Shown: positions 7,234 through 11,697 of the stretch, one piece after another | Layout: each line of letters begins with the position of its first letter | Numbering within the stretch: position 1 is the first letter of the stretch | Source: a virus | Lineage: Duplodnaviria > Caudoviricetes | Length of the DNA stretch: 64,000 nucleotides | IMG/VR virus record: IMGVR_UViG_3300037067_017859 | Span: 1-64,000 of that record | Strand: one strand, 5' to 3' | Notes under the pieces: generated by a model | Database searches by the model: none | Seen by the model: the letters and a program-made list of their open reading frames with translations, nothing else | What the model was told of the DNA's origin: nothing | Position numbers and translations under genes: made by a program

Positions 7234-7572
7234 TCAATCTGATATTCCTTTATAAGTTTCGATTCTGAGATTTTTCTCATCCATTGCCGCCTCCACGGCT
7301 TTCTCGACGTCTACAAGTTGTCCAAGACGACGAGACACTTCTGCCTTATGCCAATGTTTAAACGTAATAGAATTAGCCATACGTTCCAATGCTGCTTTTT
7401 TGTTTTGAGCTTGAGATCTGAATTCGCGTCCTTCGCCGAAAGCTCCGGATGCTATGTGCGTGATGCGCACTCCATTTTGGTTGGAGTTTTGATGCTGGCC
7501 ACCAGGGCCGCCAGTGCAGAATGTTACAATCTTAAAATCCTTTTTTGTCAGACTGAATAGAAGCTTTCGCAT
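7234..7572 (-). CDS. Release-factor-like GGQ peptidyl-tRNA hydrolase domain (ArfB/PrfH-like)
   Basis: GGPGGQHQNSNQNGVRITHIASG...RSQAQNKKAALERM; likely start MRKLLF at 7572. Confidence 0.85.
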   Translation of the reverse strand: MRKLLFSLTKKDFKIVTFCTGGPGGQHQNSNQNGVRITHIASGAFGEGREFRSQAQNKKAALERMANSITFKHWHKAEVSRRLGQLVDVEKAVEAAMDEKNLRIETYKGISD

Positions 7573-7636
7573 GGTGTAAACCCGGTTTACTACAGGCGGA
7601 GCCAATCGCAAGTCATTGACTCCGCCGCGGTGAGGG

Positions 7637-7984
7637 TTATTGACCCTTGAGTTGCTCTTCAAGCTTCGCAATTTCGTCCTTGAGAGCTTGACGCTTCTCT
7701 TCGGCAGGCAATAAAGCTTCCAGCCGGGATTTCTTTTCACGAAGCATCTTTTGCAGCCGATCAGCCTGGCTCAAAGAGATTTCCTTACGGATCTCGCGCA
7801 TCTTAGCATCAAGCCATTCGGGTTGCTCGACATTGAGGGTTTTGAACTCTTCCTGGATTACACGTCCAACTGCGGACAGAGTTACAAGATCCTCTAGAGC
7901 AAGACCCTCGGTTTCAAACTTCCGAATCTCGTCTATCAAATACATGGTCCGACCTCCTTTCTTAGTCTTCTTGGTTGCCATCAC
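7637..7984 (-). CDS. Coiled-coil protein coupled to the Ro60-like gene
   Basis: Overlaps or abuts the stop of 7962-9488; K/E-rich helical sequence. Confidence 0.6.
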   Translation of the reverse strand: MMATKKTKKGGRTMYLIDEIRKFETEGLALEDLVTLSAVGRVIQEEFKTLNVEQPEWLDAKMREIRKEISLSQADRLQKMLREKKSRLEALLPAEEKRQALKDEIAKLEEQLKGQ

Positions 7985-9488
7985 TGAACGCCTCCGACAA
8001 TTTCAAAAGCGGAGTCGACATGATCTCCTCCACCAAAGAGTATGGATTGGTCCGCATGCTTTGGACCAAGTTTGGAATACTGTAAAAATCAACATCATCG
8101 CCAAGTTCAAAAACTTGCAGATCAAAGCCACTTTTCTTCATGTTTTCGGCAAGGTCCGAATCTCCCCAACCGTGAATTGCAGATCCACAATGGTAGTAAT
8201 AGACAGGAATATCTTTTTCGGAAATCTTCAAGAGACGCCGGTATTCATCAGTAAATAATGGCGGAGTGTTCTCTTGTCCATCAGAAACGATCGCAATCCC
8301 ATCAATCTCTTCATGCCTTTGCATGGCAGCCCGTAATCCGCAACCGATGGAAGTCCCTCCATTGGCACTAACATTACGGGTCTTCTTCAAAATTTCGTCG
8401 TAGCCTAACCCGGTTACATCCATCGTTTCAGGAACAGTATCAAAGAAGGCAAGGGTGATATTCCCCTTAACCATCTTTGCCAAAGTTCCAGCAACGTGCC
8501 GGGCGGCCTCAATGCACTCAGACATGGATCCTGATTTGTCACCCAGGACCAGCCAATTGCCTTCAATGCTCATATTTTGAATCTGCTTCTCCTGGACAGC
8601 ATTGAGTTTGGCTTTCAGTTTTTCATCGCTGATTGCTTCTGCTGCGCGAGTGGTCTTCAGGACGTTTTTCTTAGACGTAGCCGCTCTCTTGAGAGCAGCC
8701 TCAAATGCTGCACGGAGCGCCGGGACAGTTTTGACGCCCAATTTCTCCAGCATTTTAGTGCTGGTGACGACTTCTGTCGGGCTCATACGCTCAATAAGCG
8801 CAAGAACTAAATCAGGATCCTTAATTTTCTCTCCAAGCGCTCCGTGTGCTATCAAGAACGGAATCTTCCGTTCAAGAATAGTTCCAGCCGCCTCCAGCGC
8901 ACTCATATTGCGCAGGTTGGCAACAGCCTCAAAAACGCTTCCTTTTGGCAGAGGAGACTTGACCGGCTTCCGGCCTTCCTCCTTCGCTTTCAGTCTTTCA
9001 TCCAGAGTATATCCGAAAAGAACGACGTTCACCCGATCAGAGCCAGGCTTAACATCAACCAACGAATAGAGCTCTTTGAGAACTGAACGGTGTTGGATAG
9101 CGGTGAAATCCCATTTCTTCCCTTCCTTCATGTGAAGATAATCCGCAATCACCCGTTTGAGTTGCCGAATATGGCCGACCGGACGAACATCCAGAGCAAA
9201 TCGATAGGCTTTCAGCAACTCTCTTGGATTCAAAAAAGTCAAATGAGCAAGACTGTTTTCGACGAGTTCTTGCGGAAATCCGGGAACGGTCAAACTGACA
9301 ATAGGCAAAGCCGCTTTCGCGTCCCTAATCTGCCCATGAGTGCGATCCCATGCAATAAGATGAGCCAAAAAGTCAGGTTCATTCTGCGCCGCAAGTTGTC
9401 CGATCGCAAGATATTCACGGAGTTTCCCATGAGGGGATTTGCTGAGTTCGGATATAATTTGGTTCTTGGTTATTTTGACTTTTTCCAT
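7962..9488 (-). CDS. Ro60/Rsr-like TROVE + vWA domain protein
   Basis: 508 aa; all-helical N-terminal ~300 aa; C-terminal vWA MIDAS DKSGSM...GGTS...VSDGQEN. Size and architecture match Ro60, and it sits next to Y-RNA-like stems. Confidence 0.72.
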   Translation of the reverse strand: MEKVKITKNQIISELSKSPHGKLREYLAIGQLAAQNEPDFLAHLIAWDRTHGQIRDAKAALPIVSLTVPGFPQELVENSLAHLTFLNPRELLKAYRFALDVRPVGHIRQLKRVIADYLHMKEGKKWDFTAIQHRSVLKELYSLVDVKPGSDRVNVVLFGYTLDERLKAKEEGRKPVKSPLPKGSVFEAVANLRNMSALEAAGTILERKIPFLIAHGALGEKIKDPDLVLALIERMSPTEVVTSTKMLEKLGVKTVPALRAAFEAALKRAATSKKNVLKTTRAAEAISDEKLKAKLNAVQEKQIQNMSIEGNWLVLGDKSGSMSECIEAARHVAGTLAKMVKGNITLAFFDTVPETMDVTGLGYDEILKKTRNVSANGGTSIGCGLRAAMQRHEEIDGIAIVSDGQENTPPLFTDEYRRLLKISEKDIPVYYYHCGSAIHGWGDSDLAENMKKSGFDLQVFELGDDVDFYSIPNLVQSMRTNPYSLVEEIMSTPLLKLSEAFSDGNQED

Positions 9489-9509: not shown

Positions 9510-9603
9510 TCACTGGAAGTCGATCGGCTTGAGTGCCATCCCGGTATTACCGAGACATAGGCATCATGTGTTAAAGACATGTAAGCCAATTCAGTACCAG
9601 TGA
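9510..9603 (-). ncRNA. Y-like cassette A (non-tRNA hairpin cargo)
   Basis: CACTGG-TACTGAAT-TGGCT-TACATG ... AAGCCGA-TCGACTT-CCAGTG. Confidence 0.8.
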
Positions 9604-9832
9604 ATCTTTTAGGATTTATATATTTTATTACCTCTCAACATCTTTAGCTTTCCGGACATATTTTACCAATGCTACAGTGAGAGATTCTTTTCCAATTACC
9701 CTGAAATACCACGCAAAGCAGCCCTTCCCAGTTATGATCAGATCCCCGATTTTCCAATACATGGCCTCTGGGCAGCGAAATTGCTGAACCTTTTTGGTCA
9801 AGGGAGTCATCTATATAAATCCCAATCTTTTC

Positions 9833-9908
9833 GTCCCATGTGCTATAGGCGCTGCGTCGAATCGGACCTGTTATGCCTAATTTGGTCCACTCAGACAGCA
9901 CATGGGAC
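9833..9908 (-). ncRNA. Y-RNA-like structured RNA with possible pseudoknot
   Basis: 12-bp terminal stem GTCCCATGTGCT/AGCACATGGGAC; GUC(U)GA/UCGAC bulged helix; GGACC/GGTCC; loop TAGGC can pair with GCCTA. Confidence 0.6.
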
Positions 9909-9911
9909 TTT

Positions 9912-9986
9912 GATGGTCCCCGCTACGGCTCTTATAGTCCCAATCCTCGAACCTTGGGCGGGTGTTGCCGGACTATCCGACCATCT
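9912..9986 (-). ncRNA. Structured RNA, nested stems with possible pseudoknot
   Basis: GATGGTC/GACCATC, ATAGTCC/GGACTAT, CCCGC/GCGGG. Confidence 0.5.
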
Positions 9987-9994
9987 ACTTTTTC

Positions 9995-10140
9995 TGGTTG
10001 CAAAGTCGACAATGCTGTTTTGATACAGACTGTTTATGAGACAGTTGCCCAACCGTTGGGCGGATCCGGCATAATAAAAAGAAAAGAGCCGGATCCCGGA
10101 GTCGAACCGGGTTCATGTAAGCATTTTCAGTATGCAACCA
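9995..10140 (-). tRNA. Cassette B: circularly permuted tRNA (anticodon CAU), break in variable loop (about 45/46)
   Basis: TACAT|GAA-CCCGGTTCGACTCCGGG-ATCCGGC..linker..GCCGGAT-D arm-ACTGTCTCATAAACAGT-CT. Confidence 0.85.
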
Positions 10141-10151
10141 TATAATTATTC

Positions 10152-10289
10152 TGGCGGTAAGTCGTTCGTGGTTTTTTTATTAGCCACTCCCCCATACTGG
10201 AATTAAAGTGGGGGAGTCAGGATTTGAACCTGAAATCTACTGATTAGTATTCAGTTGCTTTACCATGTATCCACATTCAGTGACCGCCA
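10152..10289 (-). tRNA. Cassette C: permuted tRNA (anticodon ACU), break in D loop before G18
   Basis: TACAT|GGTAAAGC-A-ACTGAATACTAATCAGT-...TCAGGTTCAAATCCTGA-CTCCCCC..linker..GGGGGAGTGGCTAAT; joining gives D loop AATGGTAA. Confidence 0.85.
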
Positions 10290-10297
10290 TATTTTAC

Positions 10298-10455
10298 TGG
10301 CCTATAAGTCGATCAGCTTATTTTTCTGTGCGTTTTCCATTTTCGCCATCCCCCTATAATTGAAAGATGAGGCAGGGGGAGAAGGAATCGAACCTTCAAT
10401 TTCGGTTTCCCGAAAACAGGACCCTAAGTCATGTAAGCTATTCAGTAACAGGCCA
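10298..10455 (-). tRNA. Cassette D: permuted tRNA-Leu(UAG), break in anticodon stem (29/30)
   Basis: 5' piece ends CGCACAG, 3' piece starts GACTTAGGGTCCTG; joining gives CAGGA-CTTAGGG-TCCTG; long variable arm. Confidence 0.87.
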
Positions 10456-10471
10456 TAGTCTTTTCAAAGAT

Positions 10472-10610
10472 CTGGAAGAGTCTGCAACGCCTTGGAGCCT
10501 GTAATATAATTCCGCAACTAATTCAGGATCCACGTCAGTCCGATTCGCTTGCTCCCATAGCCAAGAGGCAGTGTGTTTTTAATTGGACTCAGACTCTACA
10601 ATAATCCGGA
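10472..10610 (-). ncRNA. Putative structured RNA between cassettes
   Basis: Inverted repeats AGAGTCTG/CAGACTCT and AGTCCAATT/AATCGGACT; no start codon for its open frame. Confidence 0.35.
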
Positions 10611-10692
10611 GGGGTTCCTGGGACGCTATCCTCTAGAACCCCTATTCAAAATGCCCTCAATTGGGGCGTTTAGTACTTTATGACTGCAAGTC

Positions 10693-10723
10693 GTTTCAAT
10701 CCACGCCTCACGCTGGAGGCGAC
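10693..10723 (-). CRISPR. Solitary type I-C-like CRISPR repeat (no array)
   Basis: GTCGCCTCCAGCGTGAGGCGTGGATTGAAAC: GTCGC start, CGCCTC/GAGGCG hairpin, TGGATTGAAAC end. Confidence 0.75.
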
Positions 10724-10725
10724 GA

Positions 10726-10845
10726 TGGCTGTAAGTCGGCTGAGGAGCATTTGTGTTCGATACCCATCGACCCCCCCATACTATTTTTTGTGGAGGGGGG
10801 CGCCTGCGAGGCGCTACGCATGTAACCTCATCACAGTAACAGCCA
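10726..10845 (-). ncRNA. Cassette F: permuted tmRNA-like tRNA domain (Ala identity)
   Basis: GGGGGGG/CCCCTCC-A acceptor with G3:U70 and A73; stemless D region TCGATGGGTATCGA; aberrant T loop; no anticodon arm. Confidence 0.6.
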
Positions 10846-10865
10846 AATTCTTATTTCTGTGAGGC

Positions 10866-11411
10866 TCATTTGATTACCCGCTTTGCGAGGTAATCAACAA
10901 ACTTATTCGGATCCATCCCGCGCTCTGCGCACCAGACAAAAGGATCCTGCGAACCCTTATCTTTATTGCATGGCTTGCAGGACGTCAGATAATTCGAAGT
11001 GTTATTCTTCTTGTCGTCCATCTCGAGAGGGATAAAGTGATCGATCGTCATCAATCTCTCGCCCATCTTCGCGCCGCAATACATGCATTTAAACCCATCG
11101 GCCGCCCAAACCTTCTGCTGGATCGAGCCGGATATTTCGTATCTCACTTTCCGTTGGAAGATCTTAGGGTTTCCAACGAGTATCTCTGGATCATCGGAGC
11201 GGTGGATAAAGTCTGACCATTCCTCGACAGTCAATTCGTATTGATCCAGTGGACTGACTTGAGAAGTACCAGGAAGGAGTAGCAGTGCGTGAGCTCCTCC
11301 ACCACCTACAAGAAGTCCCTGAATCCTAATCAGCGACCCGATATCGCCATACATAACCGGGCGATTCCGCATTTCCATCAAATAGAACCGTTCCCCGCTT
11401 CCTTTGGACAT
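10866..11411 (-). CDS. HNH endonuclease embedded in the cassette array
   Basis: CMYCG...TIDHFIP...NNTSNYLTSCKPCNKDKG. Confidence 0.85.
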   Translation of the reverse strand: MSKGSGERFYLMEMRNRPVMYGDIGSLIRIQGLLVGGGGAHALLLLPGTSQVSPLDQYELTVEEWSDFIHRSDDPEILVGNPKIFQRKVRYEISGSIQQKVWAADGFKCMYCGAKMGERLMTIDHFIPLEMDDKKNNTSNYLTSCKPCNKDKGSQDPFVWCAERGMDPNKFVDYLAKRVIK

Positions 11412-11428
11412 CGTTGCCTCTTAATAAC

Positions 11429-11557
11429 TGGCGTTAATTCGATATGCTTTTTTTACGCGCTCTAACCAGACTGAGCTAACGGCTCAAAAGAGCCGTGTTG
11501 GACTTGAACCAACGACCTCGGCATTGGAATTGCATGTAAGCCTACCAGTGAACGCCA
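11429..11557 (-). tRNA. Cassette G: permuted tRNA-Gly(UCC), break in anticodon stem (28/29)
   Basis: 5' piece ends GAGCGCG, 3' piece starts GCAATTCCAATGCCG; joining gives CGGCA-ATTCCAA-TGCCG; U73; acceptor closed by TTTT. Confidence 0.87.
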
Positions 11558-11572
11558 TTTCTGGATTTTACC

Positions 11573-11697
11573 GTTCCCTGAAAGTCGATCAGCGGTTTTC
11601 CCTTGCGGGAATGATCGGATTTGAACCGATAACACATTGATCTCAAGTCAATTGCTCTACCATTGAGCTACATGTAAGCCGAACAGTATCAGGGAAC
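11573..11697 (-). tRNA. Cassette H: permuted tRNA (anticodon UGA, short variable loop), break in acceptor stem (6/7)
   Basis: TACAT|GTAGCTCAATGGTAGAGC-A-ATTGACTTGAGATCAAT-...CATTCCC-GCAA-GGGAA. Confidence 0.82.

What the first reader, a model, noticed from the sequence alone, without database searches (positions are those of the whole stretch)
10726..10845. Cassette carrying a miniature permuted tmRNA-like tRNA domain
Seen: the cargo has acceptor GGGGGGG/CCCCUCC-A (G3:U70, A73), a stemless D region UCGAUGGGUAUCGA and no anticodon arm or tag frame. Known: the tmRNA tRNA-like domain has Ala identity and a GG..UCGA D region that binds SmpB. Inference: a SmpB/AlaRS decoy or one piece of a split tmRNA. 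It shows that the clamp can carry cargo other than standard tRNAs. The T loop is aberrant, which weakens the call.
Basis: partly seen in the sequence, partly recalled or inferred. Interest (0 to 1): 0.7.

Follow-up and report, generated by a model that had tools for sequence, protein, structure and literature searches.

The report
Phage Y RNA with alanine-type acceptor
This 120-base phage RNA is best read as a small RNA partner of the phage's Ro60 protein (a Y RNA, not a tmRNA piece) that copies only the amino-acid-accepting end of alanine tRNA, so it may be the first Y RNA built to be charged with alanine.

Summary
The sequence is real and lies on the minus strand at 10845..10726. It has a two-stem clamp enclosing three hairpins. 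The middle hairpin is a 7-bp acceptor-like stem, GGGGGGG/CCCCUCC, with G3·U70 and A73.

The "stemless D region" is wrong. That segment is a 5-bp hairpin, and its sequence is not conserved in relatives.

Fourteen related phage lineages carry the same cassette upstream of the same gene. In all of them the acceptor stem is invariant, including G3·U70 and A73. Eight encode ACCA and six ACAA. Both flanking hairpins and both clamp stems change by compensatory substitutions.

The neighbouring 508-aa protein folds as Ro60 (TROVE plus vWA). About 80 clamp cassettes in at least 35 loci all lie upstream of it on its strand.

Nothing supports a tmRNA. There is no T loop, no tag frame, no coding piece and no SmpB. 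ARAGORN finds nothing, and Rfam gives only weak, non-specific hits.

My reading is a YrlA-like Y RNA reduced to a "top-half" tRNA-Ala mimic. It would be opened by RNase P and 3' maturation, as shown for Mycobacterium smegmatis YrlA, and could then be charged by AlaRS. That last step is inferred.

The scan's earlier notes on this element all come from this same window.

The parts
10726..10845 (-). Whole cassette F: 120-nt clamp plus three hairpins
   Evidence: Sequence; fold; covariance model R1 127.6 bits
10839..10845 (-). Clamp stem 1, 5' strand (UGGCUGU). It pairs with 10726-10732.
   Evidence: Over all cassettes 97.7% of cells are paired and all 7 pairs change on both sides
10834..10838 (-). 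Conserved YACUG motif in the clamp internal loop
   Evidence: A 80/81, C 79/81, U 74/81, G 69/81 over 81 unique cassettes
10826..10830 (-). Clamp stem 2, 5' strand (UGAGG). It pairs with 10741-10745.
   Evidence: 90.7% of cells paired and all 5 pairs covary
10819..10824 (-). Conserved UACAUG motif at the top of the clamp
   Evidence: 69-80 of 81 at each position. In some relatives it forms part of the cargo tRNA's acceptor strand.
10800..10814 (-). Hairpin 1, in the T-arm position: 5-bp stem with UCGCA loop and no T-loop consensus
   Evidence: No mispairs in 60 cells and 2-4 pair types per position in 12 homologues. Loops are UCRYA, GAAA or GAAUA.
10791..10798 (-). Acceptor 3' strand CCCCUCC (U70 = 10794) plus discriminator A73 (10791), followed by CAA
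   Evidence: Invariant in 14 lineages; the next three bases are CCA in 8 and CAA in 6
10778..10790 (-). A-rich linker closing the acceptor stem, ending UAU before G1; predicted to be removed
   Evidence: Length (6-23 nt) and sequence vary; position -1 is U in 9 and C in 3 of 12
10771..10777 (-). Acceptor 5' strand GGGGGGG (G1 = 10777, G3 = 10775)
   Evidence: A run of 6-7 G is invariant in all homologues
10757..10770 (-). Hairpin 3, in the D-arm position: 5-bp stem with GGGU tetraloop
   Evidence: No mispairs in 60 cells and 3-5 pair types per position; the sequence is not conserved
10733..10738 (-). Conserved CGACUU motif on the 3' side of the clamp internal loop
   Evidence: C 68, G 74, A 80, C 70, U 68, U 59 of 81. 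It resembles the CGAA core of the Ro60-binding motif of bacterial Y RNAs (PMC4201824, PMC12135203) but lies on the other strand.
7962..9488 (-). Divergent Ro60 (TROVE + vWA) gene, the presumed protein partner
   Evidence: AF2 model with pLDDT 82.6. The top 12 Foldseek PDB hits are all Ro60 or TROVE, E 3e-10 to 4e-7 over about 520 columns.
10866..11411 (-). Conserved 181-aa HNH protein, ending 20 nt upstream of F
   Evidence: Pfam HNH 8e-9. Found in 33 of 71 loci and conserved over its whole length. It lies next to an F-like cassette in most loci.
9510..11697 (-). The full array of seven clamp cassettes (A, B, C, D, F, G, H) that F belongs to
   Evidence: Regex and covariance-model scans; there are none elsewhere in the 109-kb genome

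Best explanation
Cassette F is one member of an array of Y-RNA-like small RNAs made by a 109-kb phage, together with its own Ro60 protein.

A conserved two-stem clamp (stem 1, YACUG/CGACUU internal loop, stem 2, UACAUG) holds a cargo. Here the cargo is only the 'top half' of an alanine tRNA:
- a plain hairpin where the T arm would be;
- a 7-bp acceptor stem carrying the alanine identity set (G1-C72, G2-C71, G3·U70, G4-C69, A73), closed by a disposable A-rich linker;
- a plain hairpin where the D arm would be.
The clamp stands where the anticodon arm would be, which is the YrlA layout.

Proposed mechanism:
1. The clamp docks the RNA on Ro60. This is inferred from strict gene linkage and from the precedent of YrlA.
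2. Host RNase P cuts after the UAU of the linker, at G1. 3' trimming and the CCA-adding enzyme then leave ...CCUCC-ACCA. This is inferred. The precedent is M. smegmatis YrlA, which is cut by RNase P and receives CCA in vivo. It is supported here by ACCA being encoded in 8 of 14 lineages.
3. The exposed minihelix is recognised, and perhaps charged, by host AlaRS. This is inferred from the invariant G3·U70 and A73; I put alanylation in vivo at about 35%.

It is not a tmRNA domain and is unlikely to bind SmpB.
For: Ro60 partner. The model of the 508-aa neighbour matches Ro60/TROVE structures over its full length.

Linkage. About 80 distinct cassettes in at least 35 of 60 related loci all lie on the gene's strand and upstream of it. 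In the phage's own genome they occur only in this array. Chen et al. 2014 used the same criterion for YrlA: within 4 kb of Ro60, on the same strand (PMC4201824).

Clamp. 93.6% of cells are paired against 56% in shuffles, and all 29 pairs change on both sides. The motifs are near-invariant.

Layout. A sister cassette, G, matches Rfam YrlA end to end at 37 bits.

F class. Fourteen lineages, whose Ro60 is 49-88% identical to the window's, keep the acceptor stem invariant, including G3·U70 and A73. Hairpins 1 and 3 covary freely. A pattern scan of IMG/VR that allowed C or U at position 70 found 16 clamp-context hits, all with U. The 5 hits with C were unrelated GC-rich DNA.

Ends. ACCA is encoded in 8 lineages and ACAA in 6. 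The linker varies in length and sequence, with a pyrimidine at -1.

Identity set. True phage tRNA-Ala genes in relatives share the first four acceptor pairs and A73-CCA. G3·U70 and A73 are the AlaRS determinants (PMC3968760).

Precedent. M. smegmatis YrlA has a 7-bp acceptor, is cleaved by RNase P, receives CCA in vivo and 'could potentially be aminoacylated'.
Against: - F has no T loop or D loop, so it lacks the tRNA elbow that defines YrlA. Rfam YrlA does not match F even at E <= 10 on 171 nt.
- The CGA-containing motif lies on the 3' strand, whereas the described GNCGAAN0-1G motif is on the 5' strand.
- There is no evidence here of expression, of Ro60 binding or of RNA ends.
- One or two unpaired C separate hairpin 1 from the acceptor stem, so the minihelix is not perfectly continuous.
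- Six lineages have ACAA rather than ACCA.
- About ten cassettes with the same layout (class F2) have G3-C70 and G73, so alanine identity is not needed by the whole class.
- All six acceptor pairs are invariant, not only 3:70. That could point to a reader other than AlaRS.
- The phage encodes none of RNase P, CCA-adding enzyme or AlaRS, so every processing step depends on an unknown host.
Confidence: 0.6

Rival explanations
1. F is a miniature tmRNA tRNA-like domain, acting as an SmpB decoy or as the acceptor piece of a split tmRNA whose coding piece lies elsewhere.
For: The gene order (3' acceptor strand, linker, 5' strand) and a G3·U70/A73 acceptor are shared with two-piece tmRNA. A relative of F gives weak hits to Rfam tmRNA_permuted (16.4 bits, E 0.09) and cyano_tmRNA (12.8 bits). 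An RF-1-domain (ArfB-like) gene lies nearby at 7234-7740.
Against: - No homologue has a T loop. The 'D region' is a covarying hairpin with unconserved sequence, whereas SmpB needs the T-loop/D-loop elbow (PMC3968760).
- There is no tag frame.
- The whole 109-kb genome has no tmRNA by ARAGORN or Rfam and no SmpB.
- None of 1653 rejoined versions of F is called.
- The weak Rfam hit covers only the generic hairpin-acceptor-linker segment, which matches a non-alanine sister cassette better (21.7 bits).
- The RF-1 gene accompanies the locus in only 8 of 71 relatives.
Confidence: 0.04
2. F is a precursor. The clamp is a processing signal that is excised, and the two ends are ligated into a circle. 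RNase P and 3' processing then open the acceptor end. This is how permuted tRNA genes mature in Cyanidioschyzon merolae. The product would be a free RNA of about 60 nt: an armless, alanine-accepting mini-tRNA.
For: Sister cassettes B, C, D and G become ARAGORN-callable tRNAs (Met-CAU, ACU, Leu-UAG, Gly-UCC) when rejoined near the G of UACAUG. Wang et al. raised this possibility for YrlA (10.1101/312249). The break point differs between cassettes, which is hard to explain by mimicry alone.
Against: - The phage encodes no RtcB or Rnl2-type ligase, and no bacterial splicing endonuclease is known.
- Some clamps hold ordinary unpermuted tRNAs that use different parts of UACAUG as positions 1-7, 1-3 or 1. 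That argues against one fixed cut in the motif.
- Rejoined F is not tRNA-like.
Confidence: 0.13
3. F-like RNAs are the dedicated partner or 5' leader of the conserved 181-aa HNH protein, acting as a cofactor, substrate or regulator. The acceptor-like stem is that protein's recognition site, not AlaRS's.
For: An F-like cassette ends 20-58 nt before the HNH start codon in at least 12 loci and lies 7-199 nt after its stop in the window's lineage. The HNH protein is conserved over its whole length, including an unassigned 100-aa N-terminal domain, unlike a sporadic homing endonuclease. Its HNH domain is closest to the RNA-guided Cas9/IscB type. Invariance of all six acceptor pairs suggests a sequence-specific reader.
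Against: The adjacency could be inherited synteny within a compact array. The HNH matches are weak (E about 1e-7 by sequence, 1e-3 by fold), and the N-terminal domain is poorly modelled (pLDDT below 60). Class F2, which also sits next to HNH, has a different acceptor sequence. CCA at 74-76 and a pyrimidine at -1 point to tRNA-end enzymes.
Confidence: 0.12
4. F is a decayed tRNA-Ala cassette with no function of its own.
For: It lacks T, D and anticodon features, and no tRNA finder calls it.
Against: Fourteen lineages keep the three-hairpin layout, with compensatory changes in four helices and an invariant acceptor stem. A relic would not do this. True tRNA-Ala genes coexist with F in relatives.
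Confidence: 0.03

Closest known systems
YrlA (Y RNA-like A), especially Mycobacterium smegmatis YrlA (Chen et al. 2014, PMC4201824; Wang et al. 2018, 10.1101/312249)
   Same: It is encoded just upstream of Ro60 on the same strand. A terminal stem stands in for the anticodon arm. The order is T-position hairpin, closed acceptor stem, D-position hairpin, that is, a circularly permuted tRNA layout. The 7-bp acceptor makes it a likely RNase P and CCA-addition substrate, as in M. smegmatis.
   Different: F has no T loop, no D loop and no elbow. The Ro60-type CGA motif is on the 3' strand, and two further invariant motifs (YACUG, UACAUG) are not described for YrlA. The acceptor carries a conserved alanine identity set. 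The Rfam YrlA model does not match F.
tmRNA tRNA-like domain and two-piece (permuted) tmRNA
   Same: The G1-G4 / C69-C72 acceptor has G3·U70 and A73, with CCA in 8 of 14 lineages. The permuted order is acceptor 3' strand, A/U-rich spacer, 5' strand.
   Different: F has no T loop, no stemless D loop, no pseudoknot, no tag reading frame and no coding piece. The phage has no SmpB. ARAGORN and Rfam find nothing at threshold.
[quoted passage not shown]
   Same: An acceptor helix with G3·U70 and A73 is stacked on a second short hairpin, with no anticodon.
   Different: F is a natural phage RNA, tethered through a clamp. It has one or two extra unpaired C at the helix junction. Charging has not been tested.
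Circularly permuted tRNA genes of Cyanidioschyzon merolae and Thermofilum (Soma 2007 and Chan 2011, as cited in 10.1101/312249)
   Same: The 3' half precedes the 5' half, the acceptor end is closed by a linker, and the termini pair into a stem.
   Different: Those use a bulge-helix-bulge motif, a splicing endonuclease and a ligase. Here the clamp has a different, sequence-conserved architecture, the context is bacterial phage, and no ligase gene is present. F would not yield a tRNA.

Membership tests
tmRNA (tRNA-like domain) | Acceptor stem with G3·U70, A73 and a 3' CCA | tested here: met
   G3(10775)·U70(10794) and A73(10791). The window has ACAA; 8 of 14 homologues have ACCA.
tmRNA (tRNA-like domain) | tRNA-like T stem-loop (GUUCRANYC type) | tested here: not met
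   The loop is UCGCA here and UCRYA, GAAA or GAAUA in homologues
tmRNA (tRNA-like domain) | Reduced, stemless D loop that contacts the T loop and binds SmpB | tested here: not met
   A 5-bp covarying hairpin with a tetraloop, not conserved in sequence
tmRNA | mRNA-like domain with a tag reading frame, in the same or a second piece | tested here: not met
   ARAGORN and Rfam find no tmRNA in the 109-kb genome, and there are no further cassettes outside the array
tmRNA | Match to curated models (Rfam tmRNA families, ARAGORN) | tested here: not met
   Nothing on F. A relative scores 16.4 bits against a cut-off of 47. None of 1653 rejoined forms is called.
tmRNA | SmpB binding and alanylation | not testable with these tools
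   The phage has no SmpB gene, and the host is unknown
YrlA / bacterial Y RNA | Encoded within about 4 kb of a Ro60 orthologue on the same strand | tested here: met
   F lies 1.2 kb upstream of a Ro60-fold gene. All cassettes in at least 35 loci are upstream on the same strand.
YrlA / bacterial Y RNA | Terminal stem carrying the GNCGAAN0-1G Ro60-binding motif on its 5' strand | tested here: not met
   The 5' strand has YACUG and UACAUG. A CGA(C/A)UU motif sits on the 3' strand.
YrlA / bacterial Y RNA | tRNA-like module with canonical T and D arms forming an elbow | tested here: not met
   Plain hairpins occupy both positions. Sister cassettes do have true T and D arms.
YrlA / bacterial Y RNA | Order of T-position hairpin, closed acceptor stem-loop, D-position hairpin between the strands of the stem | tested here: met
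   The MFE fold and most homologue folds show this order
YrlA / bacterial Y RNA | Match to Rfam RF02553 | tested here: not met
   No hit on F at E <= 10. Sister cassette G scores 37.4 bits against a cut-off of 69.
YrlA / bacterial Y RNA | Physical binding to Ro60 | not testable with these tools
   Needs pull-down or gel-shift experiments
tRNA-Ala | Full cloverleaf with an anticodon arm | tested here: not met
   No anticodon arm; ARAGORN and Rfam tRNA models are negative

The most novel reading that the evidence does not exclude
F-class RNAs are aminoacylated Y RNAs. After RNase P and CCA maturation, the Ro60-tethered minihelix is charged with alanine by host AlaRS. The phage would use the alanyl end to sequester AlaRS or EF-Tu, to protect the RNP from exonucleases, or to feed alanine into a reaction off the normal decoding path. 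The conserved neighbouring HNH protein may act on the same helix. This would be a third natural class of alanine-accepting non-tRNA, after tmRNA and viral tRNA-like structures, and the first on a Y RNA.
Probability: 0.25. Interest if true: 0.8.

Novelty: new variant of a known kind. Interest (0 to 1): 0.6.

Why it matters
What the tRNA-like module of bacterial Y RNAs is for remains an open question, and nobody has shown a Y RNA carrying amino-acid identity elements. Here a phage lineage has stripped the module down to the acceptor helix and kept the alanine determinants fixed across 14 diverged genomes. Attention therefore falls on the enzymes that read the tRNA acceptor end: RNase P, the CCA-adding enzyme, AlaRS and EF-Tu. 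The result is a short, testable hypothesis: charge it, mutate U70, and pull it down with Ro60. F also belongs to a larger family of Ro60-linked clamp cassettes for which I found no published description. These hold tRNAs in many circular permutations, and F is that family's simplest member.

Tried and rejected
- blastn of the array against 50,697 GenBank phage records found no match.
- Rfam at gathering thresholds over the whole genome found only ordinary tRNAs. Rfam at E <= 10 on F gave only noise hits, mir-541 and sR1.
- Known self-cleaving ribozyme models do not match the clamp. The only ribozyme hit in 9-13 kb was a 17-bit Pistol match outside the array.
- The sigma-70 promoter and terminator scan of the array found no more than shuffles give, and nothing on the minus strand inside the array. 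The cassettes are probably cut from a long transcript.
- Pfam, NCBIfam and phmmer against PDB did not recognise the Ro60 protein. Only the fold comparison did.
- The structure model of the HNH protein's N-terminal domain was too poor to search (pLDDT below 60).
- An automatic caller for acceptor registers across all 81 cassettes mis-registered several G/C runs. I do not use its counts.
- My stem 1 parser failed for L024, L033 and L038, whose 5' arm lacks the Y of YACUG. By eye their stems pair (GGAUUG/CAAUCC).
- Linkage of the RF-1-domain gene to the locus was tested and rejected: 8 of 71 loci.

Full report
WHAT IS THERE. The finding lies on the minus strand, 5' at 10845 and 3' at 10726. Read as RNA, it has these parts in order:
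- stem 1, UGGCUGU (10845-10839), which pairs with ACAGCCA (10732-10726);
- an internal loop with UACUG on the 5' side and CGACUU (10738-10733) on the 3' side;
- stem 2, UGAGG (10830-10826), which pairs with CCUCA (10745-10741);
- the motif UACAUG (10824-10819);
- three adjacent hairpins.

Hairpin 1 is GCGCC-UCGCA-GGCGC (10814-10800). The middle hairpin is CCCCUCC (10798-10792) paired with GGGGGGG (10777-10771). It has A at the discriminator position (10791) and is closed by a 13-nt A-rich linker ending UAU. Hairpin 3 is UCGAU-GGGU-AUCGA (10770-10757).

RNAfold returns this architecture as the minimum-energy fold: -44.5 kcal/mol, z = -2.5 against dinucleotide shuffles.

The "stemless D region" is not correct, because that segment is a perfect 5-bp hairpin.

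CONTEXT. The window is the first 64 kb of a 109,283-bp viral record rated complete. F is one of seven minus-strand cassettes between 9510 and 11697 that share the clamp.

The gene they precede (7962-9488, 508 aa) is missed by Pfam, NCBIfam and sequence search of the PDB, apart from a weak vWA match. Its AlphaFold model (pLDDT 82.6, from 56 homologues) matches Ro60 structures over the full length. The hits include Thermus phage phiLo Ro60, D. radiodurans Rsr, Xenopus and human Ro60, with E 3e-10 to 4e-7, TM about 0.6 and about 520 aligned columns. These are the top twelve hits. It is therefore a divergent Ro60 with an intact MIDAS motif.

The protein has more than 880 relatives in metagenomes. 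I fetched 71 viral loci that encode it.

THE CLAMP FAMILY. A regular expression for the clamp, and then a covariance model built from six F-type cassettes, found about 80 distinct cassettes in at least 35 of 60 loci. Every one lies on the Ro60 strand and upstream of the gene. In the phage's own genome the model finds only this array.

Over 81 unique cassettes the motifs YACUG, UACAUG and CGACUU are near-invariant, while both stems covary. In that count 93.6% of cells are paired against 56% in shuffles, all 29 pairs change on both sides, and sliding the partners drops pairing to 41-50%. One caveat applies: that alignment was fitted to the model.

The cargo varies. Some cassettes hold permuted tRNAs broken at different places. 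When rejoined, ARAGORN calls Met-CAU, ACU, Leu-UAG and Gly-UCC for window cassettes B, C, D and G. Some relatives hold ordinary unpermuted tRNAs. Some hold short hairpins, and some hold the three-hairpin F type.

Cassette G matches Rfam YrlA end to end at 37 bits, below the cut-off of 69.

Location next to Ro60 on the same strand is the criterion by which YrlA RNAs were defined. YrlA is described as resembling a circularly permuted tRNA with a closed acceptor stem (PMC4201824; 10.1101/312249).

THE F CLASS. Fourteen lineages carry a cassette homologous to F: the window, L001, L004, L006, L007, L011, L022, L024, L028, L031, L033, L038, L093 and L096. Their Ro60 proteins are 49-88% identical to the window's.

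Across twelve of them I tabulated each helix:
- Hairpin 1 and hairpin 3 have no mispaired cell in 60 cells each.
- These hairpins show 2-5 different pair types per position, so they are kept as structure, not as sequence.
- Their loops are not conserved. Hairpin 1 has UCRYA, GAAA or GAAUA. Hairpin 3 has GGGU, GAGA, GAGU, AGGU, GAAA, UUUG, GCAG or GCAA.
- No member has a T-loop consensus.

The acceptor stem behaves differently. It is invariant: G-C, G-C, G·U, G-C, G-C, G-C in 12 of 12, with one extra G·U at 4:69 in L038. A73 is invariant.

A single U-to-C transition would make a stronger helix, yet it is never seen. To test this without forcing U, I scanned IMG/VR for the pattern with Y at position 70. 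All 16 hits that sit in a clamp have U. The 5 hits with C are unrelated GC-rich DNA with no clamp.

The three bases after A73 are CCA in eight lineages and CAA in six. The linker varies from 6 to 23 nt with no conserved sequence. Position -1 is U in nine and C in three of twelve.

MECHANISM. The first four acceptor pairs and A73 are those of the true tRNA-Ala genes found in related phages: GGGGC.../...GCUCC-A-CCA. G3·U70 with A73 is the AlaRS identity set shared by tRNA-Ala and tmRNA (PMC3968760).

The closest experimental precedent is M. smegmatis YrlA. Its 7-bp acceptor is cut by RNase P in vitro, and in vivo it is cut, trimmed and given CCA. Its authors noted it "could potentially be aminoacylated".

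I therefore read F as a Ro60-docked Y RNA whose effector module has been reduced to a top-half tRNA-Ala mimic. RNase P and 3' maturation would open it into a two-piece RNA with a free ...CCUCC-ACCA end, which AlaRS could bind or charge.

What is shown and what is inferred:
- Shown: the anatomy, the covariation, the invariance of the identity set, the Ro60 fold and the linkage.
- Inferred: Ro60 binding, processing and charging.

The phage itself encodes no SmpB, RtcB, Rnl2-type ligase, CCA-adding enzyme or AlaRS. Any such step would have to use host enzymes.

WHY NOT tmRNA. Of the defining features, only the acceptor is present. There is no T loop, no stemless D loop, no pseudoknot, no tag frame and no coding piece anywhere in the genome.

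Rejoining F in 1653 ways gives no ARAGORN call, while sister cassettes are called. Rfam gives nothing on F. On the ACCA-bearing relative in L004 it gives 16.4 bits for tmRNA_permuted, against a cut-off of 47, over model positions 36-93 only. The same model segment matched window cassette C, which has no G·U, at 21.7 bits. That match therefore reflects any permuted acceptor.

The ArfB-like RF-1-domain gene nearby is present in only 8 of 71 loci.

RIVALS. A maturation route by excision and ligation, as for algal permuted tRNAs, cannot be excluded for the family. For F it would not give a tRNA.

The idea of a fixed cut in UACAUG is also weakened. Unpermuted cargos use different parts of the motif as tRNA positions: all seven bases in L070, AUG in L001 and only G in L004.

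A second rival is that F serves the conserved 181-aa HNH protein. An F-like cassette ends 20-58 nt before its start codon in at least 12 loci and follows its stop in the window's lineage. The protein is conserved over its whole length, and its HNH domain is nearest to the Cas9/IscB type. However, synteny alone could explain the adjacency.

About ten cassettes with the same layout (class F2) have G3-C70 and G73, often followed by CCA. Acceptor-end mimicry is therefore general to the layout, and alanine identity is specific to the F1 branch.

VERDICT. I class F as a new variant of a known kind, the YrlA-type Y RNA, with a concrete and untested prediction of alanylation.

Noticed in passing
L070:3808-3920; L001:2822-2942; L004:2125-2249; L047:3453-3586; L060:2717-2839; L030:3149-3266: Some clamp cassettes hold ordinary, unpermuted tRNAs that ARAGORN calls directly. 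In L070 the conserved UUACAUG is itself the 5' acceptor strand, paired with CGUGUAA. L001 uses AUG and L004 uses only G. The motif is therefore kept for its own sake and the cargo adapts to it, which argues against a single fixed cleavage point.
   Followed up: partly
L001:2843-2917 and L026:2588-2661: The cassette homologous to window cassette H carries a UUA anticodon in L001 (an ochre suppressor by ARAGORN), where the window has UGA (Ser). L026 has a clamp tRNA with an 8-nt anticodon loop. The clamp tRNAs may include recoding tRNAs.
   Followed up: no
L033:2186-2320; L024:2841-2975; L019:3113-3241: These full permuted tRNAs have true T and D arms and carry G3·U70, A73 and an encoded CCA. 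By my hand parse, not checked with a tool, their anticodons are not alanine ones (UUG, UUG, UGG). If charged by AlaRS they would misread Gln or Pro codons.
   Followed up: no
window 10866-11411 (-), and 33 of 71 related loci: A 181-aa protein has a Cas9/IscB-like HNH domain and a conserved, unassigned 100-aa N-terminal domain. It is a stable member of the Ro60 locus and nearly always lies next to an F-like cassette. It does not look like a sporadic homing endonuclease.
   Followed up: partly
window 7637-7984 (-): A 115-aa predicted helical protein overlaps the end of the Ro60 gene. It is found directly downstream of Ro60 in 51 of 71 loci and is likely a Ro60 partner.
   Followed up: partly
window 7234-7740 (-): An RF-1-domain (ArfB-like peptidyl-tRNA hydrolase) gene sits between Ro60 and the ordinary tRNA array. 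It is present in only 8 of 71 related loci.
   Followed up: partly
L001:3680-3860: The closest relative has a GC-rich insertion of about 180 nt between the HNH stop codon and cassette F. The window lacks it.
   Followed up: no
L022:2068-2147: An unpermuted tRNA-Ala(UGC) outside any clamp has CUACAUGG inside its D region, that is, the clamp's UACAUG motif. This could be coincidence or a trace of an earlier clamp junction.
   Followed up: no
L009, L012, L014, L016, L018, L026, L036, L037, L052, L071 (coordinates): A second class (F2) has the same three-hairpin layout. Its acceptor is GGGGGC.../...GCCCCC with G73, often followed by CCA. Its third hairpin is longer, with a conserved GCCGCAAGGC tip.
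   Followed up: partly
window 10693-10723: The lone type I-C CRISPR repeat reported by another follow-up starts 3 nt after the 3' end of cassette F. It is also present in L001.
   Followed up: no
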